DNA of 64,000 bases from NCBI GenBank assembly GCA_000002445.1, contig CH464491.1, forward strand, positions 3,296,001-3,360,000. Direction: 5' to 3'. The stretch comes from Trypanosoma brucei. Its lineage: Eukaryota. Below are positions 7,072 through 64,000 of this stretch, piece after piece. Each line of letters starts with the position of its first letter. The stretch's first letter is position 1. The notes beneath the pieces were generated by a model. That model had not been told where the DNA came from, did not search any database, and saw nothing but the letters and a program-made list of their open reading frames with translations. The translations under genes were made by a program, and so were the position numbers.

Positions 7072-7877
7072 GCATCCGTCGTTTTTATGTGTATTTGAGT
7101 GTCGTGTCGTTAGGCAGCCGGATGCTGTCTTATTTATTGTCTTCGTGTGTGCGCTTTGGTGCACCCTCCTTATCCTGTACTACATTTCTTTTTTCCTCCT
7201 GCAGCTTCGCCGCGGGGAGGTGCTGTGTACACACAAAGAGTAAATAAACAAATATAAAACAATATTTTCATTTTTTCCCCCATGTGGTAGCCTACGCAGT
7301 GGCAGCCTGCGAAACCCTGTAATTTTCATGTACAGTAGAGAGAGACAGCGAGAACTGTTTTGCGGGGTACTTGGTTTGTGTAAAGGGTTCACAAGCATGG
7401 GCGTCGCAAAGGGTGAGAAGGAGGGCGATGCGCATAAGCAGTCTCGGCTTTCATCTCCTTCCGCGTCATCTCTTTCTGCGTGTGACGGATGAATAAAACG
7501 TGTGTGTGTGTGTATGGGGAAGCGGAGTGCCGAGCATATTTCATGTCACATACGTCTCTTCTATCTCTTTTCTTTCCAACCTCAAGGTTGCCTCATGGAC
7601 TAATATCCGTGTTTTCCTGACAAATTCATCCGATACCGGTTTTATAATTCCCTTCGATTACCTGTAACAGCTTTTGGAAGTTGTTGTTTGCTTTGTTTTC
7701 GCTCCATTTCTGCTCCCCAACATTCCCCAGGCTTGTATTTGGCTTCCCTTTATATTTTGTACCATACTGTTTTCTCTATGCCTGCTTTATTTATTCCCCT
7801 CTTCAGTTCCCTTCTCCCTCTCCTATCCTACGCTCCTTCCGTGGTAGTAGGGGCCAGGGAAGAGGGCGAGAAAAGGA

Positions 7878-39600: not shown

Positions 39601-39694
39601 GCAGCCGTCTTGGGGATTGCTTTTGAGCGTAATCAAAATTGGAGGTGCACATTTCTTTGAACCTGTGTCTTTTCCTTTAACTGTTAATAGCAAG

Positions 39695-40957
39695 ATGGAG
39701 GGTTTGTGTGGGTGGTGGTGCATCCTATTTGTCGTAACAATCTCTCAAGCTGGTGAAGCACAAGAAAAACCAATTAACCGGGACGAGTTCGAAGCCCTGT
39801 GCAGGTTTATAAATCTCGCGGGAGACAGTGAGACACCAACGAAGGTTGAGAAAAATGTCAAGCGAACAGTGAAGAAAATTCTAACCGAAAGTGGGGTGGC
39901 CGATAGCAGGAAAAAGGAACTCGAAGATCTGCAAAAGCAAGCAGAGAAGTATCGAGAGGAAAACATGTCATTTTGGGAAACAGTAGGGATGGGGGAGATA
40001 AATAGGAGCTTGACGGACGCACTCTACGGGGAGAACCACAACGCCGTTGTTAAAGCACAAGGGAGTAGAGACCCCATCTGCGGCGCCAGAGAGGCGGACG
40101 CGGGTACGGAGGCAGGAAAGTCACTGGTGATCGACTTATTTTGCCTATGTTCCACATCGCCAGAACTTCACAACTTTCAGCAGATTTGCTGCGCCGACTG
40201 TCGAGGTGGAGCAAACGACCACCCCTGGATTCCTTCGGAAGATGGGAACCAGAGATGGAAGTTCCTTGCGCAAAAATGTGGAGAAACTAATCAAGGTGGA
40301 AAGCTCTCAACAGACTCCATTGAGAAGTCAGCCGAATTCTTTTTGAAAACATTGAAAAATCCCTTAGACTCAAGAGCGGAGGCACGCCGCACAGTGCTAG
40401 GAAGCACCAACGGCGATGTTAGCATTAATTGCAACGGTTGGAAAACTTCGGGAAACGGACGGTGCGTCAAATACGATCCAAACCACTTAAATGATGGGAT
40501 CCTGTCAATACCATGGTACGTAAAATTGGCGAAGGCAGCGACCCGAATGGATAAATTAATGGAAGCTGAAAAAACGTTGCGTGAGATTCTGGAAAATGTG
40601 GAGAAGTTGGAACGAAAGCAAGTCGCAATACCACCCAAACCTGCTGACGAGGGTAATGCCGTCCCGAGCGTCTCAAAAGACGTCGTAGAAAACAACAATG
40701 AAAATTCCGGCGTAAGTAATAATCGTGAGAAAAGAGAAAGCAAAGGTGAACTCAACGAAGAGAAATCACCAGGGAGTGAAAAGTCGCCGGAGGAAGTCGA
40801 CTGTGACGGCTGTAAACCCGAAGAAGGGTGTGAGGAGGGAAAATGTGAAAGCGAAAATGGGAGACACGACTCTGAAGGCACAAAAAGGCCACCTGTAAAG
40901 AGCCATTCTGCAACAATAATCGGTGGTTCGTTGAAGTTTTTCTTGCTTTTGGGATAA
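39695..40957 (+). CDS. VSG-like / GPI-anchored surface protein candidate (signal peptide, Cys-containing ectodomain, acidic Cys-rich C-terminal module, hydrophobic GPI-signal tail)
   Basis: Track ORF starts at TTG 39617; ATG is at 39695. N-terminal signal peptide MEGLCGWWCILFVVTISQAGEA. Helical region with an EFEALCRFINLAGD-type motif. C-terminal DCDGCKPEEGCEEGKCESENG followed by KS|HSATIIGGSLKFFLLLG, a 17-aa hydrophobic tail after Ser, as in trypanosome GPI-addition signals. Confidence 0.5.
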   Translation: MEGLCGWWCILFVVTISQAGEAQEKPINRDEFEALCRFINLAGDSETPTKVEKNVKRTVKKILTESGVADSRKKELEDLQKQAEKYREENMSFWETVGMGEINRSLTDALYGENHNAVVKAQGSRDPICGAREADAGTEAGKSLVIDLFCLCSTSPELHNFQQICCADCRGGANDHPWIPSEDGNQRWKFLAQKCGETNQGGKLSTDSIEKSAEFFLKTLKNPLDSRAEARRTVLGSTNGDVSINCNGWKTSGNGRCVKYDPNHLNDGILSIPWYVKLAKAATRMDKLMEAEKTLREILENVEKLERKQVAIPPKPADEGNAVPSVSKDVVENNNENSGVSNNREKRESKGELNEEKSPGSEKSPEEVDCDGCKPEEGCEEGKCESENGRHDSEGTKRPPVKSHSATIIGGSLKFFLLLG

Positions 40958-42579
40958 AGAGTTCTCCGTAAGCTTCAAAAGAATAAAAAGGTGGTGAAGG
41001 ACACAACTCCAGTCACACAAGCGTAAAAATATTAACCACTGTACCATTCCTGAGTTGTGTGATGGGAAATGAGTTCGCCAACCCAAAGTTTGGAACAAAA
41101 ATGGCCAACTATCGGGGAGGAGGGAGGCAGCGGGTACCACTGAACCATCTCCCTAGTCGCGGTGGTTCCCAGAATATTTTTTTGACGCGTAATGCGTAAG
41201 CCCTATATTATCACCGGAACTGAAAATTTGCTCGAAATATATTGATATTTTTGTTTTAAAGTGCAACGGAAACGAAACACGACAAGTACGTATTTTTATG
41301 AACGTCTAAAAGTTTATCAACTTCTCACATGCAAATTTACTCCCGAAAACAACTATATATAAAATGAAAGTAGTTGCAAATGCGCGAAGAATTTTCTTCT
41401 CCTGTCATCAATCACCGCCCCAAAGCGCCCGTTTAGTCCGTGGGAAAAGGGAGGAAACGTCCTTGCAAAAATAAAAAAACGCCGTGTTGAGACGGTATGA
41501 AATACAAGGGTGGAGAAAGGCCGCGTCCGTCCGCTAAACATCACCCGTTATTGCGGATTGCGTGTGACACTCTCAGGAAATGTTTTCGTGTCGGGAATGG
41601 GAACGCAGAACAACAACAGCACAGTTTCACAACCCCTGTCTTCTTTAAACGCCCGTATTATGTCAAAAAAAAAAAAAGACAGTACAACTGGAGCGCCGAT
41701 ACGCGTGACGTCGGGGGTAACTCTGTCTCTCTGTTTCGCGTAATCTTATCTTATTAGTGCCATCCGATCCGTGCCAGCAAGCCGCAACACTCATGTTGAT
41801 GGAATAACTCCGCCGCCGGCACACCGCCTTCTAAGAACCCGAAAAGGCGGTTTGGAAAATGGATGGTGGGAGGTTCCGCTCGAAGGTTATTTTATCAACA
41901 GCTGCAGCCCGGCAAACTTAACATGGCGTTGAATTAACGATAGCTGAGAAACTGCGCGACACTCTTCTCGAAACCAACGGACCGCTTCTTTCAGTCCCCT
42001 TCGTGTCATTTCATGAAACCCGTCTTGTCCAAATCCCCTCTCGGAATCTCACTGCTCTCCGTCGAAACAGATGGCGCGAAGCGATCAGAAGCCGGTGGTG
42101 GGATTCGGCCACACATCCGCCAAACCTGCCGATGTGATTCGAGTCTCGTTGGGAGGGGGAAGTCACATTATGCAGGTGGATTTGACCTTATATATCACAT
42201 TTTTCCTTCCCTTTCCTCACTGATGCTAGCACAGGGGGAACGTGGAGAGAAATGGGGAAATAATGGTGTGTACAAAGCTTATTTCCTTGCTTCAGACGAA
42301 GGTAGCGGGGGCCCGCGCAGAAGCTTACATGAAAGACGTCCCTGTCAGAACTGCTGGTGTTTCCAAAGGGAAGGAAAAGACAGACTAGTGAGGCACCCTC
42401 CGCCTGTAACGGCACAGTTTGGGAAATCTTAAAAAAAAACTCCCCCAGAGGGGGGAGGGGGAAGAAATATAGAGGGCCACACCCCCTGCCTCTGATACAA
42501 CATCGTTTCGTCATGACTCCTCCACATGTATGTGTTACACCTTTCATCAGCCTCACGGTGTTTCCGGCAGGGCGCATAT
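40958..42579. terminator. Convergent strand-switch region (cSSR) between PTU-A (+) and PTU-B (-); expected RNA pol II termination zone
   Basis: The last + gene ends at 40957 and the first - gene ends at 42580. No long ORF. Contains T- and A-runs and several short hairpins. Confidence 0.55.
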
Positions 42580-44058
42580 TTACATCCGTGGGGAGGAGCC
42601 CAGAAGAATACGATCCATATTTATTGGTTTAACGAACTTGGGAGTAGGCGAACCCGTTTGAGCAGACGTCCCATTTGGATGGGGTCTGGGCGACCGACCT
42701 CTCAACAACTCAAACCCGGGCTTGCAGTTCGGCGACCTCGTACCTTGAAACTCTGGGGGCGACGATCCCAGCGATAGTTCGGTTGCGCGCCGGCGCAGGT
42801 TTCCAACCCCGTCCCGCAGCCCGGTACCTGTTTTCCTCAAACCTCCCACGCTACGCCCCTTTGAACCACAGTTGGTCAGGCTACCGGAAAGCGCGCTTGA
42901 CGTGTGTCTGCGGTTTCCAGGGGATTTACCCACTCCCAACGTGTTGGTTGCCCTCATTGCGGAAGTCCACGCCGGCCCCGTGGCGAGGGAGTTGTACCGC
43001 TCTCTTTTTGTTGCTGGTCGAGCTGGAGCGCTCCACCCACGGTTCCGAGATGCCACACGCCCTAATGGAGGGGACACTTGTCGGTAGGAGCTCCCGACAC
43101 CACTGGCAGCAGAAACACCGCGATACCCCATGGGGGCAGCGCTCTTCATACGAAGCATGCCAAACCGCTGCTGGACAGACGTCTGGCTACGACCGCCACC
43201 TCTGCGCGCATTCATTTCCGTTTCCATCATCTTTCGCTTTGCCTGATGCGCGGACGCGAGAGCATACAGCCTTTCCCACGGTCCGCTTCCATCTTGGCGC
43301 CGTGAGGCAGCAACACTACGTCTAACAACATTCCCCCGAGAAACTTTGGGTGCAGGGGGGGCGGTCGTGCTTCGTGGCTTGGCTGCGCGGCTCCACAAGC
43401 TGCGCTCGCGGTTCGTTGGCCTCGTTGAAAAGGAGTTTTTTGGTTTGTACAGTGCTGTTGGCATTCTCGGTTGTGACAAGGCTTTGCGCCGTGGGTTCCA
43501 AACAGGCCTACGAGGGGCGCTCTCCTTGAATGGCCCCTTGTTGTTACGATATTCCTCCAACTCCCGCCGAACGCGTTTCCATAAGTCCTCAAGGGACACA
43601 TCCTCCCGATCGTCCACATCTCCCCTTGCATTCTTGTTCAACAATCCCCTCGAAGGGGTGGCTCTATTTCCCACATTTCCGCGCGCCAGCAGCCGGTTAC
43701 GACCAGCTGCACCGCTATTCTTCCCCACGGCTGGCTTGTTACGTTTGACATCATGGGTGCGACTGCGCCCCAACCCACTTGCCATTTCAAAGAGCTCCTG
43801 TAATTTTTCGTGAGACTGTTGCAAAACTGAACTTTGATCCATCCCTCCGGACATGGCGGGTTCGTAGAATGGAGTCGCCGTGGGTAACTTCGCAATACTG
43901 CCGCCGTGAAGGAGGTCATGCCCTTGTTCCAACAATTCCTCCAAGCGCGCCATGGGCCCACCGAGTTCATTGAGGTCCCTTCCCTCAACCCGACCCGCCA
44001 CTTCAAGCGGGCGGCTACTGCCCGTGGACGGAGAAGTATCAAAGGAATCACCACACAT
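42580..44058 (-). CDS. Hypothetical basic, Ser/Arg/Pro-rich low-complexity protein; paralog of 46074..46526
   Basis: Track ORF starts at GTG 44073; ATG is at 44058 (MCGDS...). 492 codons. Shares N-terminal (MARLEELLEQGHDLL) and C-terminal (DVDDREDVSLEDLWKRVRRELEEY) motifs with the next gene upstream. Confidence 0.5.
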   Translation of the reverse strand: MCGDSFDTSPSTGSSRPLEVAGRVEGRDLNELGGPMARLEELLEQGHDLLHGGSIAKLPTATPFYEPAMSGGMDQSSVLQQSHEKLQELFEMASGLGRSRTHDVKRNKPAVGKNSGAAGRNRLLARGNVGNRATPSRGLLNKNARGDVDDREDVSLEDLWKRVRRELEEYRNNKGPFKESAPRRPVWNPRRKALSQPRMPTALYKPKNSFSTRPTNRERSLWSRAAKPRSTTAPPAPKVSRGNVVRRSVAASRRQDGSGPWERLYALASAHQAKRKMMETEMNARRGGGRSQTSVQQRFGMLRMKSAAPMGYRGVSAASGVGSSYRQVSPPLGRVASRNRGWSAPARPATKRERYNSLATGPAWTSAMRATNTLGVGKSPGNRRHTSSALSGSLTNCGSKGRSVGGLRKTGTGLRDGVGNLRRRATELSLGSSPPEFQGTRSPNCKPGFELLRGRSPRPHPNGTSAQTGSPTPKFVKPINMDRILLGSSPRM

Positions 44059-46073
44059 GATGCCCCCCCCCACGTATATGCAGTCAACTAATTATAGGTA
44101 AATATACACAAACGAGAGTACACAGATGCGTGTTGCAAGTGCAATACACTCTTGATGAAGTCCACCTCCCAGCGTTACGCTACACGATTTCCTTTCTGTT
44201 TTTCCTTATCTTCTTTTTTCTTTTACTGTCCAGTCCTCGATTTCTCACTTTCCGCCAAATGTGCTCACGGAGCAACAGTGAGTTCCAAGGATCACGGAGG
44301 TAGACCACGAAAGGAAATATATATTTATATATATATATATATACGGCACCACTTAGGTGTTAATCTCCCGTACGCTTACTGAGACCACAAAACCGTGAGT
44401 TTCAACAGGTCCGACACACAACAAACCGAACAAAATTTTCTTTTCTATACTTTGCCGATAATTCTCTCCCGCGCCCTCTCGCTGCAGGAAAAGAAACTGC
44501 TGAGTGCCCCCTCACTTTACCTTTACACGTACGCACACTCAAACTTCAAATTCCGCCGAGCGTTTATTTTTGATGCTGCTTTGTGGGTGTGACAGGTAGG
44601 GTAAAGGGTACAAAACCTACGGCAACAGTAATGATAATAATAACAATAAATAACTGTGAAAATGACGAAACGAACGCAACAAAGGGGTTGAAGCACAGCA
44701 AGCACCAAGTCGAGGGCCCACTTGCTTCCAACTAATGCGGTGGTAAAAACAAAATATACGCTCCCTCTTTCCTTTCTCCCCGTCCCCGGCCTGGCACTTC
44801 AACCAGTCAATTATCTCTCTCCAATTCAATGGAACTCTCTACGTGCCCACCCTCGTTCGTCCCCTTTACGGGCCTGCGTGCAGCTTTCGTATCCGGTTGA
44901 ATTTTCGTGGACTCCAAACAGCAGGTCAAGTGTTCGTACCAAATATTCCCCTTATAATATATTTATATATTCCCTTTTTTCTTTTGTACACCGCTGACGG
45001 CGTTACTGGTGGATGGCAGGAAGAGCGAGTGGCACCGCCCCCTCACTGATTCCCCGCCGTTGCCTCTATGTTCTATTGCTTTTCCTCCCTTTATTTATCT
45101 TCTCTTGTTTTCTTTTGAATATGAAAATACCAATTACTCGTGATGCTACAGCCACTGTTAGGTGAAAGAAAGGTTTGCCCTTGCCTCCTTCTTTCCTCCT
45201 TCCTGTTCCCTTTTTTTCTTCTTTTTTTCCCCCTTCCTATAGGTGACAAGTTAATTTTTTTTTAAAAAAATAAGTAAATATGTAAACAATGCCTTCAACT
45301 TTTTGATTTGTTTGGTTCTTCTTTTTTTTTAAAAAAAAAAAAGATTAATCTTTGGAGGGGGTTAACCCGCTGAGGTGGTTGGAAAGGCAGCAAGAATTTG
45401 CACTCAAGGCCACAAGCGTAATGGGATCATGCAAATTCATGTGAACACTTAAATCGTCATAAAGGCAGTTGGGGGCCAAACAAAAACACGCAGGCACTTC
45501 TAGGCATGAATATATTTTAAATACATAAACACAAACACGCCATTAAAAATGGAATGCACACGAAACACACAATGCGGTTAACATTTTACAAGAGGAAACT
45601 GACGGGAAAAAAAAACGCAAATTGCACGTCACAAACCTGCAGCAGGGGCCGCACATTCTTAACACGATGGTTGCAAAATGCTCACACCTACATCAGGTAG
45701 TCATAATATGACTGCGGTGGTGAGGTCGCAGTTGAGGCCATATTATTTTTTAACACGCAACGTGGCAACGCTGCCCTCACACTTGTGCCGCAACTTGTGA
45801 AATAAGAGGAACACAAGAGATGGTAACAAAAAAAAAAAAACACTCAGCACTATAATCAAAAAAACGCACCAAACAAGCAGAAAAAAGAAAAATTATAAAA
45901 ATAAAGTAAACAACACAGCACGAAACGAAGTAGGAAGGTACATCTGCGTACATTACGAATTTTATGCACATACGGATATCGACCTGACGGTAAACATTAG
46001 TTCAATCCAAAACACAACCCTTAGAATTCCGATGGCATGTACCTTTATTGTAACCTCAGAAGCGAGGCGTATA

Positions 46074-46526
46074 TTAACCCGGTTTGTGGCAACAAGCGGC
46101 GAGACCGAAGCGGCAGTAATCATTCAACTCCGCTCGGATGCGGTTGCGCAAGGCGGTGAGCGAAATATCCATGCGGTCGTCCACAATATCAAAAGCTGCA
46201 TTCGAAGGCCTCCCCGCTTTGGGTTTGGGACCCGAAACCGCCGATGAGGTCGAGCGGTGACGACTACTTTTCCCCGATGTCGCACTAAACCCCTTTAATG
46301 AAGTGGTACCCGTTGGAGAAGGCGAGTTCCCGCCATTAAATCCACTAACTGAATTTGTTTCACCCCACGCAAGCCGCACCGACCGGTAACCGCAAAGGAG
46401 AGTCATTGATTCATTCAACAAATTCTCCACACGCTCCATAGAAGTGCGAATCCGATCAAACTCCGCCATGCACGGGGAGGGAAATGCCACCCGCAACGGA
46501 GTCCCGCCACCATGAAGGCAGCTCAT
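46074..46526 (-). CDS. Hypothetical protein, short paralog of 42580..44058
   Basis: Track ORF starts at TTG 46580. ATG 46526 lies just downstream of a polypyrimidine tract and AG (minus sense). Motifs MERVENLLNESMTLL and DIVDDRMDISLTALRNRIRAELNDY. Confidence 0.45.
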   Translation of the reverse strand: MSCLHGGGTPLRVAFPSPCMAEFDRIRTSMERVENLLNESMTLLCGYRSVRLAWGETNSVSGFNGGNSPSPTGTTSLKGFSATSGKSSRHRSTSSAVSGPKPKAGRPSNAAFDIVDDRMDISLTALRNRIRAELNDYCRFGLAACCHKPG

Positions 46527-46637: not shown

Positions 46638-46664
46638 CCACCACCACCACCACCACCACCACCT
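46638..46664. repeat. (CCA)9 microsatellite
   Basis: ccaccaccaccaccaccaccaccacc. Confidence 0.9.
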
Positions 46665-47893: not shown

Positions 47894-48943
47894 TCACACA
47901 CGACACAAACCCGTATTTTCTTTTACGGTGTCGGTCCGCATGTGGCACTCGTTGTTGTAGCGGTGATGCAGCTCCTCCGCCTTTTTATGAACCTCCTCCA
48001 GAGACTCGTCAGCAGTCGTGTTCAAATTCCCCAGCACATAATACAGCGCCGGATCAATCATAAAGGCTTCAGAAGAAATTTTACCGCTTCCGAAGCTGCG
48101 GCAGTAGCGGTGGAATGCAAGAGATGTATAAAACCCTTTGGTACTGGGACACAACACCGCACTCTCAGAGTTGTCCCTCCTTGAATGTTCTGGTTGGCAA
48201 CGTAAATCGACCCTAGTGGAATCCCCACGACCGGAAAACATAAATTCCCGCACCCGCTGCCACTCATGTTGGCGCTCACATCGCTCATTCCATGCCGTAA
48301 CCCCGCGAAGGGTACCGCTACGAGTTAGATTCGCCACAAGGTTCATTTTCCAACTTTTAGAAGCAGCCGCTGCAGAGACTGCGTCGGGTACATTACCGCT
48401 CGGAACTACGGCGTCATATCGCCTGGGCACGCTGTCAAACCCCACCAATGATCTATCATCTCCAATATCCTCCTCTTTTCCCGCAAGGCTGCGGGTGGCC
48501 CGGCTGCGACGACGCGAAACCGATTTTCCCGATGCGCTGGACTGCAACCGTCGCAGTGCCCCAAGTCTGGTAGGGGCACGCTCCAAAGCTATGCGACTCT
48601 CCCATTCATCATCTGTTGCCCTCAAAAGCGCCTCCGTCCCAACGTCTTCCACATTAGTTAACCGCGCCAGCCTCTGAATCACAGCAGTTTTGCCATAACC
48701 AGACAATGGACTCACAGCGGGCTCATGATTATATGAGTGTGTGGAATCGTGCGCACGCTCATGTTGTTGCTGCCGATGCCTGCGCAGCAATTGCATGGCA
48801 AGCGAGCTCGCCTCCCCACACATGCCGCCACTCAGTGAAACAGCGGATTGCATTGATGACAATTGTGAAGGGCCCTCGGTAACGGTGGTATTGGCCCAAT
48901 GGCGACGCAGTACCCGACGGTAAACACAGCAGGTGCGTCTCAT
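47894..48943 (-). CDS. Hypothetical protein (start uncertain)
   Basis: Track ORF starts at TTG 48997; first ATG is at 48943, preceded by a T-run. 349 codons. A degenerate P-loop-like SPLSGYGKTAV is present, but no family is recognised. Confidence 0.45.
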   Translation of the reverse strand: MRRTCCVYRRVLRRHWANTTVTEGPSQLSSMQSAVSLSGGMCGEASSLAMQLLRRHRQQQHERAHDSTHSYNHEPAVSPLSGYGKTAVIQRLARLTNVEDVGTEALLRATDDEWESRIALERAPTRLGALRRLQSSASGKSVSRRRSRATRSLAGKEEDIGDDRSLVGFDSVPRRYDAVVPSGNVPDAVSAAAASKSWKMNLVANLTRSGTLRGVTAWNERCERQHEWQRVREFMFSGRGDSTRVDLRCQPEHSRRDNSESAVLCPSTKGFYTSLAFHRYCRSFGSGKISSEAFMIDPALYYVLGNLNTTADESLEEVHKKAEELHHRYNNECHMRTDTVKENTGLCRV

Positions 48944-49259
48944 CAAAAAAAAAAAATAGTGAGGGGAGTCTGTTGATGGAGAGAAGAGCAAAAACAAACA
49001 AGAAAAAAAGGTAACAGAAATAAAAGTAACAGGAAAATCGACTGACAGAGAGCATCAGAGTAACCTGCAGACGAAAACGCGGGAAGACCGCTGCACGTGG
49101 TAGCAGAGAAGGGGGCGCGATCTTTACTCCCGACATGAACTGAAAGAACCTTCGTATCTGTGCCTGCATGAACCCGTTGCAATAAAATGATGCATACAGA
49201 CACAGTTCGTGGATGCGACGTGTGCCTTCACGTACGGGGGAGAACCCATTTCCCAAAGC

Positions 49260-50093
49260 TTACTGCCTTCCCGTTGCATCACCACGACGGTGGCCTCCCC
49301 ATTGTTGGGGTTTCTGCTTCTTGGGGCAGTCACGGACCTCATGCCCCTCTTCTCCACAGAAAAAGCAGCACTTCCGCGCGGCACGTCCATCGCTCTGGAA
49401 GTACAACTGTTCTCCAGGTTCCTGGAGAGCCATCAGCAACCGCCGGAGCAAACCACTTTGCATACCCGGACAGTTAGGTGACAGATGCCCCGGATCAAAG
49501 CAACGGTAACATGTGGCATTTTTGTTGAAAGATGGATCGTCTGCCCGCTCGATCAGCATCCGCTGCCGCAGCCGCTCACTAACGTCATTACGGTTGTAAA
49601 GCTGCTGTACGGGGTGGCCCAAAGCACACTTCGGCCCCAACGGACAAAATCCTGTGAGGTAAAAGACACACGGTGGGCGGAAGACGTGCCGCAGCCGGCA
49701 CTTGGGACCTAATGGACAAAAACCTCGGCGGTAAGCGGCGCATTCCGGCTGCCGCTCCACCTGCACGACGTGCTGGAATGGACACTCCGGATTGGAACAT
49801 TCACCGAGACGCTGATAAAAGGCACATGCAGGGACATAACGATCGTCGTATTCATGCAAATATACACAATTTTCACCGTTCACGCAGGCGCCGCGAAGCC
49901 AATGCTTGCAGACCTCCAAACGCATGGACTTAAATTGGGAGAGAACATGCCGCTCAGGGCACGCCGCACCGTTTCGACACTTGCCATGTTGGAACGGCTG
50001 ACAAATTTCAGACCGCTTCGCCGTAGCGGGGGCCTCGACTGGAAGGGTATCCTCGAAGGCAAGTGACGTGTGGGCAGCGTTGTCAGTAAACAT
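49260..50093 (-). CDS. CPSF30: Cleavage and polyadenylation specificity factor 30-kDa subunit (CPSF30)-like CCCH zinc-finger protein
   Basis: Track ORF starts at TTG 50138; ATG is at 50093. Five tandem CX7-8CX4-5CX3H fingers (CQPFQHGKCRNGAACPERH, CKHWLRGACVNGENCVYLH, CAFYQRLGECSNPECPFQH, CAAYRRGFCPLGPKCRLRH, CVFYLTGFCPLGPKCALGH). Two CCHC zinc knuckles (CYRCFDPGHLSPNC, CFFCGEEGHEVRDC). Confidence 0.75.
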   Translation of the reverse strand: MFTDNAAHTSLAFEDTLPVEAPATAKRSEICQPFQHGKCRNGAACPERHVLSQFKSMRLEVCKHWLRGACVNGENCVYLHEYDDRYVPACAFYQRLGECSNPECPFQHVVQVERQPECAAYRRGFCPLGPKCRLRHVFRPPCVFYLTGFCPLGPKCALGHPVQQLYNRNDVSERLRQRMLIERADDPSFNKNATCYRCFDPGHLSPNCPGMQSGLLRRLLMALQEPGEQLYFQSDGRAARKCCFFCGEEGHEVRDCPKKQKPQQWGGHRRGDATGRQ

Positions 50094-50562
50094 GACGAAC
50101 CACCGTAACTGAATAAGGGTGATGCAGGGGATAATCAAGTGGTACCCCCTCCTGCTGCTTCCACCCTTTACCCTCTGCTACAAACTACTACTTTCGCTCA
50201 GGTGGAAAAGAGGAAAGGGTTGAAGGAAGAAACAATGCACAGTCCACGCGCACTGTCCACTCAACAGCAACCACATGCGAAAGAGATGGAGAAATAAGCA
50301 ACAGCGAGTTTAGAGGTGGGAATGTGAGAAATTAACGGAGGTTGTTCGAGCCTCCGCTGCGCAACTCTTTGCAGTTCCAGAGAAGTGAGTTCACAAACAG
50401 CGGCCAGCCGTGGTAGCGGGCAAACAGGAAGCGAATTAAAAAAAGAGCGAAAAAGCCAGATAATAGCAGAAGCACCCTCTACAACCACTTAAACGATGCC
50501 GGAAGCACACAACCGAACTCCACAAGCCCTCTGTTCTTTTTAAGAATGCACGACGATAAAAA

Positions 50563-59346: not shown

Positions 59347-60150
59347 CTAGAAATCTGCGTCCAGAGAGAAAACCTTTGACGACCTTTCGGAACTCATCAC
59401 ACCAGCCTTCTGATACTCACCAACCTTCTTCTCGAAAAAGTTAGTTTTCCCCTGAAGAGAAATCATATCCATGAAGTCAAATGGGTTCTTCGAGTTGTAA
59501 TGACGGTCGTACCCCAAGGACACCAGGAGCCGATCGGCGACAAACTCAATGTACTGAGTCATCAGCTGAGAATTCATTCCAATTAAGCGGACAGGTAATG
59601 CATCGCAAATGAACTCTCGTTCAATTGATACTGCATTGCATATAATTTCAAGCACACGATCCCTCGGCAGCTTGTTTACGATATACTTCTCGTATAATAG
59701 GCAAGCAAAGTCAGTGTGCAGACCCTCATCACGTGAAATCAGCTCGTGCTGAAGGTGAGCCCGGGCATCAAGCCACGCTTCTTTAGCCAAAAAATGGNNN
59801 NNNNNNNNNNNNNNNNNNNNNNNNNNNNNNNNNNNNNNNNNNNNNNNNNNNNNNNNNNNNNNNNNNNNNNNNNNNNNNNNNNNNNNNNNNNNNNNNNCGC
59901 TTGCCGCGAAGAAAGCCAACACATGTTTGATGAAGTGTCGCTCGCCGTCGTCCAGCTTCTCCCAATCCGTCATGTCATTCCCAAGGTCGATTTCCTCCAC
60001 CGTCCAGATACTGCTCTCCGCCTCCTTGTACTTCTGCCATATGTCAGGGTACTTGATAGGGAAGATAACGTAGCGGTCGGGGTTTTCTGTCAGAAGTGGC
60101 TCCTCCACCTCCCCTTCCTTACGCGAGCGCTTGTGAGATTTGGGTGGCAT
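59347..60150 (-). CDS. RNR2: Ribonucleotide reductase small subunit (R2), array copy 1, interrupted by an assembly gap and a local frameshift
   Basis: Start and end are identical to copies 2 and 3 ([17 protein letters not shown] ... FSLDADF). A 100-N run at 59798-59897 sits inside the ORF. A 1-nt deletion relative to the other copies lies just 3' of the gap on the coding strand. Confidence 0.5.
59798..59897. other. Assembly gap (100 N placeholder)
   Basis: Run of 100 n characters. This unit is ~190 bp shorter than the neighbouring units, so the true gap is about 285-290 bp. Confidence 0.95.
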
Positions 60151-60952
60151 CGTTAGCACTGTCCTTGTTTTTCTTCTCTTGATGTGTTTTCAATATACGA
60201 CAGAGCAGCTAATGGAATGAATGAAGAGAAAGCTTGCACACAAGAGGCATATTGAGTAGTGAAGTAGCGAAACAGTGGAAAGAAGTGGACATCCCAACCA
60301 ACGCGCACAATACATTGCCATCGTGTAACTATCAGCACAAAAAGGGTAGTCGCAATAATTGCAACCGTCCCTCCACTATGGCATTACCAAATGGAAAAAC
60401 TAAAACAAGTCAAAGGGAAAAACAATGGGAACCTGACAGGTACAAAAGTGCAAAATGGTATGCCTCTTACACATTTCCCTTTCACCACCCTCACACATAG
60501 AAACTGTCATCAAGCATAGCGTGTAAATATTTGTCAGGTGAGGGCACTCTAAGCACTAATATTGAAACCAATTGTCCACCAAAGGTAAAAAGACAAGAAG
60601 AAAGGCATCTACTAAAGCGGACACATTCTCTCCCATCTATATCTATTTACATAGGTATATATCTATTTCCGGATTTACCCACGTTCGTACTTCCGTACGC
60701 ACGCAGGTTCTCGTGTATGCCTATGTACGATTCTATGTGTTTGCATGCAGGCGTATGGAGGCATACGTGCTGCTGCCCACAAGCTCATTTCCTTGTTATG
60801 ATATTTGTTAAAAACAACAGCCAGTACTCCAAGGAGGTGCAGTCGCTGACCTTACCAGAGTAACAGATATCTAACTCAATGAAAGTAAAGGGCATCAGCC
60901 CCATACTTTACAGTTCCCCTCACATACGGGCACGCACCAACGATAACATCCC

Positions 60953-61966
60953 CTAGAAATCTGCGTCCAGAGAGAAAACCTTTGACGACCTTTCGGAACT
61001 CATCACACCAGCCTTCTGATACTCACCAACCTTCTTCTCGAAAAAGTTAGTTTTCCCCTGAAGAGAAATCATATCCATGAAGTCAAATGGGTTCTTCGAG
61101 TTGCAATGACGGTCGTACCCCAAGGACACCAGGAGCCGATCGGCGACAAACTCAATGTACTGAGTCATCAGCTGAGAATTCATTCCAATTAAGCGGACAG
61201 GTAATGCATCGCAAATGAACTCTCGCTCAATTGATACTGCATTGCATATAATTTCAAGCACACGATCCCTCGGCAGCTTGTTTACGATATACTTCTCGTA
61301 TAATAGGCAAGCAAAGTCAGTGTGCAGACCCTCATCACGTGAAATCAGCTCGTTGCTGAAGGTGAGCCCGGGCATCAAGCCACGCTTCTTTAACCAAAAA
61401 ATGGCGCAGAACGAGCCAGAGAAAAATATGCCTTCGACAGCCGCAAACGCGACGAGCCGCGTAGGGAACGAAGTCTGACTGCCAATCCATTCAATCGCCC
61501 ATTTGGCCTTTTTCTCAATACACGGAATCGTCCTTATGGCATGTAGCAGTCGTTGCTTTTCGTCGGGATCCACAACATACGTATCGATCAACACGGAGTA
61601 TGTCTCACAATGGATATTTTCCATAGCAATCTGGAACCCATAGAAACATCGAACTTCAGGTACCTGCACTTCGCACATGAACCGTTCCGCAAGGTTCTCC
61701 AGCACAATGCCATCGCTTGCCGCGAAGAAAGCCAACACATGTTTGATGAAGTGTCGCTCGCCGTCGTCCAGCTTCTCCCAATCTGTCATGTCATTCCCAA
61801 GGTCGATTTCCTCCACCGTCCAGATGCTGCTCTCCGCCTCCTTGTACTTCTGCCATATGTCAGGGTACTTGATAGGGAAGATAACGTAGCGGTCGGGGTT
61901 TTCTGTCAGAAGTGGCTCCTCCACCTCCCCTTCCTTACGCGAGCGCTTGTGAGATTTGGGTGGCAT
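60953..61966 (-). CDS. RNR2: Ribonucleotide reductase small subunit (R2), array copy 2 (337 aa)
   Basis: Track ORF starts at GTG 61975; ATG is at 61966. R2 hallmarks are present: [29 protein letters not shown] (Fe ligands E/H), [18 protein letters not shown], conserved C-terminal Tyr in VGEYQKAG, and R1-binding tail FSLDADF. Confidence 0.9.
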
Positions 61967-62743
61967 CGTTAGCACTGTCCTTGTTTCTCTTCTCTTGATG
62001 TGTTTTCAATATACGACAGAGCAGCTAATGGAATGAATGAAGAGAAAGCTTGCACACAAGAGGCATATTGAGTAGTGAAGTAGCGAAACAGTGGAAAGAA
62101 GTGGACATCCCAACCAACGCGCACAATACATTGCCATCGTGTAACTATCAGCACAAAAAGGGTAGTCGCAATAATTGCAACCGTCCCTCCACTATGGCAT
62201 TACGAAATGGAAAAACTAAAACAAGTCAAAGGGAAAAACAATGGGAACCTGACAGGTGCAAAAGTGCAAAATGGTATGCCTCTTACACATTTCCCTTTCA
62301 CCACCCTCACACATAGAAACTGCCATCAAGCATAGCGTGTAAATATTTGTCAGGTGAGGGCACTCTAAGCACTAATATTGAAATCAATTGTCCACCAAAG
62401 GTAAAAAGAAAAAAATACACCCGATAAACAAGTGTCTTACTCCAGACATTAAAATCATCAAATGATATTAGCTATCTCACATGTAACAAGCGCACAGGTT
62501 CTCGTGTATGCCTATGTACGATTCTATGTGTTTGCATGCAGGCGTATGGAGGCATACGTGCTGCTGCCCACAAGCTCATTTCCTTGTTATGATATCTGTT
62601 AAAAACAACAGCCAGTACTCCAAGGAGGTGCAGTCGCTGACCTTACCAGAGTAACAGATATCTAACTCAATGAAAGTAAAGGGCATCAGCCCCATACTTC
62701 ACAGTTCCCCTTACATACGGGCACGCACCAACGATAACATCCC

Positions 62744-63757
62744 CTAGAAATCTGCGTCCAGAGAGAAAACCTTTGACGACCTTTCGGAACTCATCACACC
62801 AGCCTTCTGATACTCACCAACCTTCTTCTCGAAAAAGTTAGTTTTCCCCTGAAGAGAAATCATATCCATGAAGTCAAATGGGTTCTTCGAGTTGTAATGA
62901 CGGTCGTACCCCAAGGACACCAGGAGCCGATCGGCGACAAACTCAATGTACTGAGTCATCAGCTGAGAATTCATTCCAATTAAGCGGACAGGTAATGCAT
63001 CGCAAATGAACTCTCGCTCAATTGATACTGCATTGCATATAATTTCAAGCACACGATCCCTCGGCAGCTTGTTTACGATATACTTCTCGTATAATAGGCA
63101 AGCAAAGTCAGTGTGCAGACCCTCATCACGTGAAATCAGCTCGTTGCTGAAGGTGAGCCCGGGCATCAAGCCACGCTTCTTTAACCAAAAAATGGCGCAG
63201 AACGAGCCAGAGAAAAATATGCCTTCGACAGCCGCAAACGCGACGAGCCGCGTAGGGAACGAAGTCTGACTGCCAATCCATTCAATCGCCCATTTGGCCT
63301 TTTTCTCAATACACGGAATCGTCCTTATGGCATGTAGCAGTCGTTGCTTTTCGTCGGGATCCACAACATACGTATCGATCAACACGGAGTATGTCTCAGA
63401 ATGGATATTTTCCATAGCAATCTGGAACCCATAGAAACATCGAACTTCAGGTACCTGCACTTCGCACATGAACCGTTCCGCAAGGTTCTCCAGCACAATG
63501 CCATCGCTTGCCGCGAAGAAAGCCAACACATGTTTGATGAAGTGTCGCTCGCCGTCGTCCAGCTTCTCCCAATCTGTCATGTCATTCCCAAGGTCGATTT
63601 CCTCCACCGTCCAGATGCTGCTCTCCGCCTCCTTGTACTTCTGCCATATGTCAGGGTACTTGATAGGGAAGATAACGTAGCGGTCGGGGTTTTCTGTCAG
63701 AAGTGGCTCCTCCACCTCCCCTTCCTTACGCGAGCGCTTGTGAGATTTGGGTGGCAT
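62744..63757 (-). CDS. RNR2: Ribonucleotide reductase small subunit (R2), array copy 3 (337 aa)
   Basis: Same as copy 2. It differs at two codons (ENIHSE versus ENIHCE in copy 2; DRHYNS versus DRHCNS). Confidence 0.9.
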
Positions 63758-64000
63758 CGTTAGCACTGTCCTTGTTTTTCTTCTCTTGATGTGTTTTCAA
63801 TATACGACAGAGCAGCTAATGGAATGAATGAAGAGAAAGCTTGCACACAAGAGGCATATTGAGTAGTGAAGTAGCGAAACAGTGGAAAGAAGTGGACATC
63901 CCAACCAACGCGCACAATACATTGCCATCGTGTAACTATCAGCACAAAAAGGGTAGTCGCAATAATTGCAACCGTCCCTCCACTATGGCATTACCAAATG

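What the first reader, a model, noticed from the sequence alone, without database searches (positions are those of the whole stretch)
42580..46526. Two neighbouring genes are divergent paralogs sharing short N- and C-terminal motifs around a variable basic core
Gene 42580..44058 (492 aa) and gene 46074..46526 (150 aa) share an N-terminal helix motif (M-A/E-R-L/V-E-E/N-L-L-E/N-x-x-x-x-L-L) and a C-terminal motif (D-V/I-(V)-DDR-x-D-V/I-SL-x-x-L-x-x-R-V/I-R-x-EL-x-E/D-Y). The long paralog has acquired a ~300-residue Arg/Ser/Pro-rich disordered insertion. No known domain is recognised. Conserved termini around an expandable disordered core suggest an uncharacterised kinetoplastid family, possibly RNA-binding or phase-separating given the RS/RG-like composition.
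Basis: seen in the sequence. Interest (0 to 1): 0.55.

Follow-up and report, generated by a model that had tools for sequence, protein, structure and literature searches.

The report
Conserved paralog pair in African trypanosomes
Two neighbouring Trypanosoma brucei genes of unknown function are real, ancient paralogs that share two short helical motifs in otherwise disordered proteins; they form a small family seen only in African trypanosomes, and published screens tie it to the cell cycle and the posterior cell tip.

Summary
The core observation holds. The window is T. brucei chromosome 11. The long gene is Tb927.11.12720 (492 aa) and the short gene is Tb927.11.12730 (150 aa). They share two colinear helical motifs: BLASTP E=2e-6, and 0 of 2000 shuffles reach the alignment score. 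A profile of the long orthologs scores the short protein 33.9 bits (best shuffle 6.6), and profile-profile comparison gives E=1.7e-9.

The anatomy was misread. In the long protein the "C-terminal" motif sits at aa 147-171 of 492. The basic region is therefore a 320-residue C-terminal extension, not an insertion, and it holds further conserved helices.

Orthologs of the long gene were found only in T. congolense and T. vivax. The short gene is annotated as T. brucei-specific, yet T. vivax has a syntenic ortholog (E=4e-14). The duplication therefore predates the salivarian radiation.

No Pfam or PDB relative exists, and RS/RG dipeptides are not enriched. Published screens show the short protein at the posterior cell tip in a cell-cycle-dependent way. 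They show the long protein with cell-cycle-regulated abundance and Ser-Pro phosphorylation.

The most likely role is a lineage-specific, cell-cycle-regulated docking or dimerisation module. This is a modest result.

The parts
42580..44058 (-). Long paralog, Tb927.11.12720 (Tb11.01.4570 by inference; UniProt Q382Q9), 492 aa
   Evidence: ORF. Same-length cluster member XP_829334.1/Q382Q9. Phosphopeptides listed under Tb927.11.12720/Q382Q9 match the window translation.
43903..43953 (-). Shared motif 1 in the long protein (aa 36-52, MARLEELLEQGHDLLHG), a predicted helix
   Evidence: Columns M36, R38, E40, L42, L43, L49 and G52 are invariant across three long orthologs and the short paralog. AF2 helix 35-50.
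43771..43833 (-). Helix found only in the long proteins (aa 76-96, ...HEKLQELFEMAS...), absent from the short paralogs
   Evidence: Conserved in T. congolense and T. vivax. AF2 helix 76-96, pLDDT about 86.
43546..43620 (-). Shared motif 2 in the long protein (aa 147-171, DVDDREDVSLEDLWKRVRRELEEYR), a predicted helix
   Evidence: BLASTP E=2e-6 to the short protein. Invariant columns D150, R151, D153, L159, R162, R164, E166 and L167. AF2 helix 156-172, pLDDT 83-92.
43144..43287 (-). Conserved helices found only in the long proteins (aa 258-305: PWERLYALAS...; QRFGMLRM)
   Evidence: Conserved in T. congolense, partly in T. vivax. AF2 helices 260-287 (pLDDT 90-93) and 293-305.
42580..43545 (-). 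Basic (net +49), Arg/Ser/Gly/Pro-rich C-terminal extension (aa 172-492). It carries the Ser-Pro phosphosites S379, S432, S442 and S456 (nt 42691-42924).
   Evidence: Composition and charge. Mostly pLDDT <50. Cell-cycle phosphoproteome, PMC6907760.
46074..46526 (-). Short paralog, Tb927.11.12730 (Tb11.01.4580), 150 aa
   Evidence: ORF. XP_829335.1. ID mapping in TrypTag Table S3. Syntenic T. vivax ortholog, E=4e-14.
46389..46439 (-). Shared motif 1 in the short protein (aa 30-46, MERVENLLNESMTLLCG)
   Evidence: HMM hit of 8.0 bits, colinear with motif 2. hhalign. AF2 helix 18-45.
46113..46190 (-). Shared motif 2 in the short protein (aa 113-138, DIVDDRMDISLTALRNRIRAELNDYC)
   Evidence: BLASTP. 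HMM hit of 24.3 bits. AF2 helix 123-140.
46077..46115 (-). Cys/His-containing C-terminus found only in the short proteins (C138...C146-H147..G150)
   Evidence: C138, C146, H147 and G150 are invariant between the T. brucei and T. vivax short proteins and absent from the long proteins. Significance untested.

Best explanation
Shown. The two genes are an ancient tandem pair of paralogs in salivarian (African) trypanosomes. Each protein is largely disordered and carries the same two-helix module: motif 1, a 66-94 residue variable Ser/Gly/Arg-rich spacer, then motif 2. The long form adds a third helix inside the spacer. It also adds a 320-residue basic tail that contains two more conserved helices and a cluster of Ser-Pro phosphosites. 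Both forms already existed in the common ancestor of T. brucei and T. vivax.

Inferred. The two amphipathic helices form a protein-protein docking or dimerisation module. This module recruits the proteins, in a cell-cycle-dependent way, to the posterior cell end, which is the plus-end region of the subpellicular microtubule array. In the long paralog, the basic tail supplies electrostatic binding, most plausibly to acidic tubulin tails. That binding is tuned by CDK-type (CRK3:CYC6-like) phosphorylation rising from S phase to mitosis. The short paralog is a tail-less version that could share the same partner, or pair with the long form, as a competitor or regulator.

Confidence. About 0.95 that the two are true homologs conserved in synteny. 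About 0.4-0.45 for the functional model.
For: Homology:
- BLASTP E=2e-6.
- 0 of 2000 shuffles reach the alignment score.
- Ortholog HMM scores of 33.9, 27.0 and 31.8 bits, against shuffle maxima of 6.6, 8.2 and 13.0.
- hhalign E=1.7e-9 covering both motifs colinearly.
- The residues shared by the paralogs are exactly the columns invariant among orthologs.

Age and synteny:
- The T. vivax locus L001 has the order CPSF30-like gene, 323-aa gene, 136/159-aa short gene, 542-aa long gene. This is the same order as the window.
- T. brucei short against T. vivax short gives E=4e-14.
- No DNA-level similarity remains between the two T. brucei genes.

Structure:
- AF2 predicts helices only at the conserved blocks.
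- 365 of 492 residues in the long protein fall below pLDDT 50, and the short protein is two helices in a disordered chain.

Expression and biology, from published screens:
- The short gene has 7-8 fold higher translation efficiency in bloodstream forms with unchanged mRNA (PMC4210626 Table 2).
- The long protein was detected by mass spectrometry and listed among 443 cell-cycle-regulated proteins, highest in early G1.
- Its phosphosites S379, S432, S442 and S456 are all Ser-Pro and rise after G1.
- S442 is among the 917 cell-cycle-regulated sites. It falls in cluster Phos-02, which is enriched for CDK motifs and contains CYC6 and CRK3 sites (PMC6907760).
- TrypTag notes that many posterior-tip proteins are plausibly microtubule-associated.
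Against: - No localisation for the long paralog could be retrieved. The stored TrypTag table is truncated.
- The short protein tagged at its C-terminus gave only faint, background-like signal.
- No interaction or microtubule-binding data exist.
- AF2 gave low pTM (0.21-0.24), so packing of the two helices against each other is not predicted with confidence.
- No conserved SxIP or other plus-end-tracking motif is present.
- The posterior tip also hosts RNA-decay granule and APC/C proteins, so that localisation does not by itself imply microtubule binding.
- The cell-cycle and localisation data are from procyclic forms, while translation of the short gene is higher in bloodstream forms.
Confidence: 0.45

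Rival explanations
1. RNA-granule or RNA-binding protein. The basic disordered regions bind RNA or drive condensation, and the posterior-tip signal reflects the posterior-pole RNA-decay granule (XRNA/ALPH1), not the cytoskeleton.
For: The tail is basic (net +49), R/S/G/P-rich and disordered. TrypTag reports RNA-catabolism proteins with a posterior-tip focus.
Against: RS, RG, RGG and RSRS counts are no higher than in composition-matched shuffles. No RRM or other RNA-binding domain is present. The short paralog, which is the one seen at the posterior tip, lacks the basic tail and has a net charge of only +7. The localisation is cell-cycle dependent and the phosphorylation follows a CDK-type pattern.
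Confidence: 0.15
2. The shared helices are only a generic oligomerisation (coiled-coil-like) element inherited from the ancestor. The two paralogs now have unrelated functions and locations, so the posterior-tip and cell-cycle data for one say nothing about the other.
For: The paralogs are very divergent, sharing 19-23 of 50 motif positions and nothing else. The long form has three conserved helices that the short form lacks. The short forms have their own Cys/His C-terminus. The nearest PDB match to motif 1 is a designed helical heterodimer at a non-significant E of 0.82.
Against: Both paralogs show independent cell-cycle signatures: localisation timing for the short one, abundance and phosphorylation for the long one. 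The adjacent arrangement has been retained since before the T. vivax split.
Confidence: 0.25
3. The short ORF is a decaying, non-functional remnant of a duplication, or an annotation artefact.
For: It is annotated 'T. brucei spp.-specific', is small, has low-complexity middle residues, and gave only faint signal when tagged at the C-terminus.
Against: The T. vivax ortholog at the same genomic position has both motifs and the Cys/His C-terminus intact. Ribosome footprints show stage-regulated translation efficiency. The N-terminally tagged protein gives a specific signal.
Confidence: 0.04
4. The motif similarity is chance or convergence between amphipathic, charged helices and does not reflect common descent.
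For: Motif 1 alone in the T. brucei pair is only marginal, with 199 of 5000 shuffles reaching its score. Charged helices of the E/R/L type are common.
Against: The two motifs keep the same order. The genes are adjacent. The same result is obtained independently in T. vivax. The shared residues coincide with the columns invariant among orthologs. hhalign gives E=1.7e-9.
Confidence: 0.03

Closest known systems
T. brucei posterior-cell-tip proteins catalogued by TrypTag (microtubule-associated proteins, APC/C subunits, the XRNA/ALPH1 focus)
   Same: [quoted passage not shown] It is disordered and low in abundance.
   Different: It shares no domain with any named posterior-tip protein. No Pfam or PDB relative exists. 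The localisation of the long paralog is unknown to me.
CDK/CRK3:CYC6-type cell-cycle phosphoproteins (cluster Phos-02 of Benz & Urbaniak 2019, PMC6907760)
   Same: S442 of the long paralog is in this cluster. S379, S432 and S456 are Ser-Pro sites with the same rising profile, and protein abundance is cell-cycle regulated.
   Different: No kinase-substrate relation has been shown. Only S456 (S-P-R-P) approaches the full S/T-P-x-R/K consensus.
SR proteins and RGG-box RNA-binding proteins
   Same: The overall composition of the tail is Arg/Ser/Gly-rich, basic and disordered.
   Different: No RS dipeptide arrays, one RGG, no enrichment over shuffles and no RRM.
EB1-dependent plus-end-tracking proteins (SxIP motif in a basic Ser/Pro-rich region)
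   Same: Basic Ser/Pro-rich disordered sequence. The short paralog sits at the microtubule plus-end pole of the cell.
   Different: No SxIP or LxxPTPh motif occurs in either T. brucei protein. A single SLIP in T. congolense is not conserved.

Membership tests
The family defined here (salivarian-trypanosome two-helix proteins: Tb927.11.12720 and Tb927.11.12730 with their orthologs) | Motif 1: M-[AE]-R-[LMV]-E-x-L-L-x-x-[GS]-x-x-[LI]-[LI]-x-G | tested here: met
   Present in all five sequences. M, R, E, LL and G are invariant.
The family defined here (salivarian-trypanosome two-helix proteins: Tb927.11.12720 and Tb927.11.12730 with their orthologs) | Motif 2: D-D-[RC]-x-[DQ]-[VTI]-[SP]-[LI]-x-x-L-x-x-R-[VI]-R-x-E-L-x-x-[YF], located 66-110 residues after motif 1 | tested here: met
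   Present and colinear in all five sequences.
The family defined here (salivarian-trypanosome two-helix proteins: Tb927.11.12720 and Tb927.11.12730 with their orthologs) | Conserved tandem arrangement downstream of the CPSF30 and tRNA-import-complex genes | tested here: met
   The gene order in the window matches the gene order in T. vivax L001. The T. congolense locus could not be fetched.
SR (serine/arginine-rich) proteins | RS domain with consecutive or enriched RS/SR dipeptides | tested here: not met
   The tail has 11 RS/SR dipeptides against 11.5 +/- 3.0 in shuffles, and 0 RSRS.
SR (serine/arginine-rich) proteins | One or more RRM domains | tested here: not met
   No Pfam hit at E<=1 other than a sub-threshold CENP-Q match.
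RGG/RG-box proteins | Clustered RGG/RG repeats | tested here: not met
   One RGG, and RG/GR counts at shuffle expectation.
SxIP plus-end-tracking proteins | [ST]-x-[IL]-P motif conserved within the basic Ser/Pro-rich region | tested here: not met
   None in the T. brucei long or short protein or in T. vivax. One non-conserved SLIP in T. congolense.
CENP-Q (PF13094) | Score at or above the Pfam gathering threshold (28.5 bits) | tested here: not met
   12.5 bits, E=0.16.
Named trypanosome posterior-end or cortical MAPs (for example PAVE1/2, CAP15/17; recalled from memory) | Sequence similarity to those proteins, and microtubule binding | not testable with these tools
The exhaustive phmmer search returned no paralogs other than orthologs.

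The most novel reading that the evidence does not exclude
The two-helix module is a previously unrecognised targeting and dimerisation domain, specific to African trypanosomes, for the posterior (microtubule plus-end) pole. The long and short paralogs form a regulated pair. The long form anchors to microtubules through a tail switched by CRK3-type phosphorylation. The short, tail-less form, which is preferentially translated in bloodstream forms, competes for the same site. Together they would tune posterior-end remodelling or abscission between life-cycle stages.
Probability: 0.12. Interest if true: 0.55.

Novelty: new member of a known kind. Interest (0 to 1): 0.3.

Why it matters
The finding corrects an annotation. 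Tb927.11.12730 is not specific to T. brucei: it has a syntenic T. vivax ortholog and is a paralog of its neighbour Tb927.11.12720.

It also defines a compact two-motif signature, with named invariant residues, for a family restricted to salivarian trypanosomes. That gives a concrete mutagenesis handle.

Finally, it joins scattered high-throughput observations into one testable hypothesis about posterior-end and cell-cycle biology in a pathogen. Those observations are posterior-tip localisation, stage-specific translation, cell-cycle-regulated abundance and CDK-type phosphorylation.

The gain is incremental and does not change a paradigm.

Tried and rejected
Searches that led nowhere:
- The word-indexed homology searches returned only the query clusters. 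With a four-sequence profile they were swamped by low-complexity candidates and missed even known members.
- The T. congolense protein is not on record in the contig index, so its locus could not be examined.
- DNA-level similarity between the two loci was not significant (best E about 0.05, on low-complexity flank stretches).
- A six-frame profile scan found no further copies in the window or in L001.
- Pfam and PDB sequence and profile searches found nothing significant.
- Fold search was not run, because both AF2 models are low-confidence outside isolated helices.
- No tRNA or Rfam hits occur in the window.

Ideas tested and rejected:
- An RS domain or RGG box.
- SxIP, LxxPTPh, KEN or RVxF motifs conserved across orthologs.
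- CENP-Q membership.
- Amphipathicity of the helices was only weakly above shuffles and was not used as evidence.

Literature dead ends:
- My first guess at the gene IDs (Tb927.11.12940-12990) was wrong.
- The old IDs are not in any main text.
- The supplements of the ribosome-profiling paper and the cell-cycle transcriptome paper do not contain the genes in the stored text.
- The RIT-seq paper is not held.
Full report
**Identity of the region.** The window is Trypanosoma brucei chromosome 11. The 492-aa ORF at 42580..44058 (-) and the 150-aa ORF at 46074..46526 (-) fall in 90%-identity clusters with two annotated proteins of the same lengths. These are XP_829334.1/Q382Q9 ('hypothetical protein, conserved') and XP_829335.1 (Tb11.01.4580, 'T. 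brucei spp.-specific protein').

- TrypTag Table S3 equates Tb11.01.4580 with Tb927.11.12730.
- Phosphopeptides listed under Tb927.11.12720/Q382Q9 match the long ORF exactly.
- The neighbours fit this placement. The 367-aa gene at 47894..48997 is Tb11.01.4590 = Tb927.11.12740, a mitochondrial tRNA-import complex protein.
- CPSF30 (Tb11.01.4600) is at 49260..50138.
- Next come a UBR-box protein and three tandem RNR2 copies, Tb927.11.12780.
- Upstream on the plus strand a VSG_B-domain gene ends at 40957. A convergent strand switch lies at about 41.0-42.5 kb.

- BLASTP aligns DVDDREDVSLEDLWKRVRRELEEY (long, aa 147-170) with DIVDDRMDISLTALRNRIRAELNDY (short, aa 113-137) at E=2e-6.
- The Smith-Waterman score of 75 exceeds all 2000 shuffles of the short protein and all 1000 shuffles of the long one. 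Shuffle means are 37-41 with SD about 6.
- The first motif (MARLEELLEQGHDLL against MERVENLLNESMTLL) is only marginal in the pair alone. 199 of 5000 shuffles reach its score.

Orthologs settle the question.

- An exhaustive phmmer search of 1.84 billion representatives returned just two further clusters. One is T. congolense (E=2.4e-37) and the other is T. vivax (E=1.7e-4).
- An HMM of the three long orthologs scores the short protein 33.9 bits (shuffle maximum 6.6). It gives separate, colinear hits to motif 1 (8.0 bits) and motif 2 (24.3 bits).
- An HMM built only from T. congolense and T. vivax still gives 27.0 bits, against a shuffle maximum of 8.2.

**A second, independent replicate.** The T. 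vivax contig that encodes the long ortholog (L001) keeps the same gene order as the window. The order is a 307-aa gene, a CPSF30-like gene, a 323-aa gene, a small gene, then the long gene.

- The small gene (L001:7102-7512) reads ...SMERMEGLLRRSFAILYGE...SDDCQQISLEELRRRIRAELDAYCHACH....
- It aligns end to end with the T. brucei short protein at E=4e-14.
- It scores 31.8 bits against the long-ortholog HMM: motif 1 gives 14.6 bits, motif 2 gives 18.8 bits, and the shuffle maximum is 13.0.
- Profile-profile comparison of the long group against the short group gives probability 96.3% and E=1.7e-9 over 117 columns that include both motifs.

The short gene is therefore not specific to T. brucei, and the duplication predates the divergence of T. 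vivax from T. brucei. Consistent with that age, no nucleotide similarity remains between the two T. brucei genes. No third copy exists in the window or in L001.

In the long protein motif 2 ends at residue 171 of 492.

- The basic Arg/Ser/Gly/Pro-rich region (net charge +49) is a C-terminal extension of about 320 residues. It is not an insertion between the motifs.
- The inter-motif spacers are 94 aa in the long protein and 66 aa in the short one.
- The long proteins carry extra conserved blocks that the short ones lack. These are a helix around EKLQELFEMAS (aa 76-96) and, in the tail, PWERLYALAS... (aa 258-287) and QRFGMLRM (aa 293-305).
- AlphaFold2 predicts helices at exactly these conserved blocks. 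In the long protein they are 35-50, 76-96, 156-172, 260-287 and 293-305. In the short protein they are 18-45 and 123-140.
- The rest is predicted as disorder. In the long protein 365 of 492 residues fall below pLDDT 50, and pTM is 0.21-0.24, so no tertiary packing can be claimed.
- The idea of expandable disorder does apply to the tail. One T. vivax model is 542 aa. The Y486 model is 943 aa, with tandem 18-residue repeats (APSKVAPEPERLRRTPST).
- Whether the ancestor was long or short cannot be decided without an outgroup.

**What it is not.**

- Pfam has nothing above threshold. CENP-Q scores 12.5 bits against a cut-off of 28.5.
- PDB profile searches return only a designed helical bundle at E=0.82, or nothing.
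- The 'RS/RG-like' description fails a direct test. RS/SR, RG/GR, RGG and RSRS counts in the tail equal the expectation from composition-matched shuffles.
- No conserved SxIP, LxxPTPh, KEN or RVxF motif is present.

**Evidence from published screens.**

[quoted passage not shown] The C-terminal tag gave only weak, background-like signal. The same paper describes the posterior tip as unexpectedly complex. It hosts plausibly microtubule-associated proteins, APC/C subunits and RNA-decay factors.
- Ribosome profiling lists Tb927.11.12730 among 33 genes regulated primarily by translation efficiency. The log2 values are +3.0 and +2.7 in bloodstream relative to procyclic forms, with unchanged mRNA.
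- In the cell-cycle proteome and phosphoproteome, Tb927.11.12720 was quantified as a protein and listed among 443 cell-cycle-regulated proteins. It is highest in early G1, with a log2 maximum change of 0.64.
- Its phosphosites S379, S432, S442 and S456 are all Ser-Pro. They dip in late G1 and rise afterwards.
- S442 is among the 917 cell-cycle-regulated sites, in cluster Phos-02. That cluster is enriched for CDK consensus sites and contains CYC6 and CRK3 sites.
- I found no main-text mention of the long gene in any paper.

**Most likely mechanism.**

- Shown: a conserved two-helix module embedded in disorder, a conserved tandem gene pair, expression of both proteins, cell-cycle-dependent behaviour of both, and a posterior-tip location for the short one.
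- Inferred: the helices form a docking or dimerisation module. That module brings the proteins to a partner at the posterior, plus-end pole of the subpellicular array.
- Inferred: the basic tail of the long paralog adds electrostatic binding, most plausibly to microtubules. CDK-type phosphorylation weakens that binding as the cycle proceeds.
- Inferred: the short paralog is a tail-less competitor or partner, favoured in bloodstream forms.

I put about 0.95 on the homology and synteny claims and about 0.4-0.45 on this functional reading.

**Main rivals.**

- The shared helices are merely an inherited oligomerisation element and the two proteins now do unrelated things (0.25).
- The short ORF is a dead remnant (0.04).
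- The similarity is chance or convergence (0.03).

**Novelty and interest.** Both genes are annotated as hypothetical and appear only as rows in large tables. I did not find three things stated anywhere: the paralogy, the two-motif signature and the T. vivax ortholog of the supposedly T. brucei-specific gene. This is a new small lineage-specific family of a familiar kind, namely disordered, CDK-phosphorylated, cell-cycle-regulated proteins with short helical interaction motifs. It is useful for trypanosome cell biologists and for annotation, but it would not surprise a specialist.

Noticed in passing
window 39617-40957 (+) and 41000-42500: A VSG_B-domain gene (Pfam E=7.7e-46) with signal-peptide-like and GPI-signal-like ends is the last gene of the plus-strand cluster. 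It sits directly before a convergent strand-switch region that contains no tRNA genes or Rfam hits.
   Followed up: partly
window 59347-63766 (-): Three tandem copies of the ribonucleotide reductase small subunit (RNR2, Tb927.11.12780), 98-99.5% identical at the DNA level. The first copy is interrupted by a 100-base run of N (59798-59897), which is an assembly gap and not a truncated gene.
   Followed up: yes
L001 6880-7512 (+) (T. vivax): The called T. vivax short gene (136 aa) probably starts too late. An in-frame ATG at L001:7033 gives 159 aa whose N-terminus aligns with the T. brucei N-terminus (...F-x-S-P-x-M...).
   Followed up: partly
window 46077-46115 (-); L001 about 7465-7485: The short paralogs of T. 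brucei and T. vivax share a Cys/His pattern just after motif 2 (Y-C-x(3-7)-C-H-x-x-G), which the long paralogs lack. C-terminal tagging of the T. brucei protein gave only background signal. This could be a metal-binding or acylation site; not tested.
   Followed up: no
T. vivax proteins P0012 (542 aa), P0013 (943 aa) and P0014 (186 aa): Three very different gene models of the long ortholog fall in one 90% cluster. The Y486 model has at least 8 tandem 18-residue repeats (APSKVAPEPERLRRTPST) in the tail. This is either real tail-length polymorphism or assembly collapse or expansion.
   Followed up: partly
window 46638-46663: A perfect (CCA)8.7 microsatellite (GGT on the coding strand) lies about 110 bases upstream of the short gene's ATG. 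An automatic gene call from another isolate (P0010, 211 aa) reads through it as a poly-Val stretch, and that isolate also has three substitutions in the short protein.
   Followed up: no
window 44059-46073: The 2-kb interval between the two paralogs has no ORF of 80 aa or more on the minus (gene) strand — the only one there is 91 aa on the plus strand — no tandem repeats and no Rfam hit. It is presumably a long 3' UTR of the short gene plus intergenic sequence, which could relate to the gene's stage-specific translational control.
   Followed up: no
window 47894-48997 (-): The gene immediately upstream of the pair is Tb927.11.12740 (Tb11.01.4590), a mitochondrial tRNA-import complex component. 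It is reported to have a DRBD3-masked cryptic internal trans-splice site (PMC12592628).
   Followed up: partly
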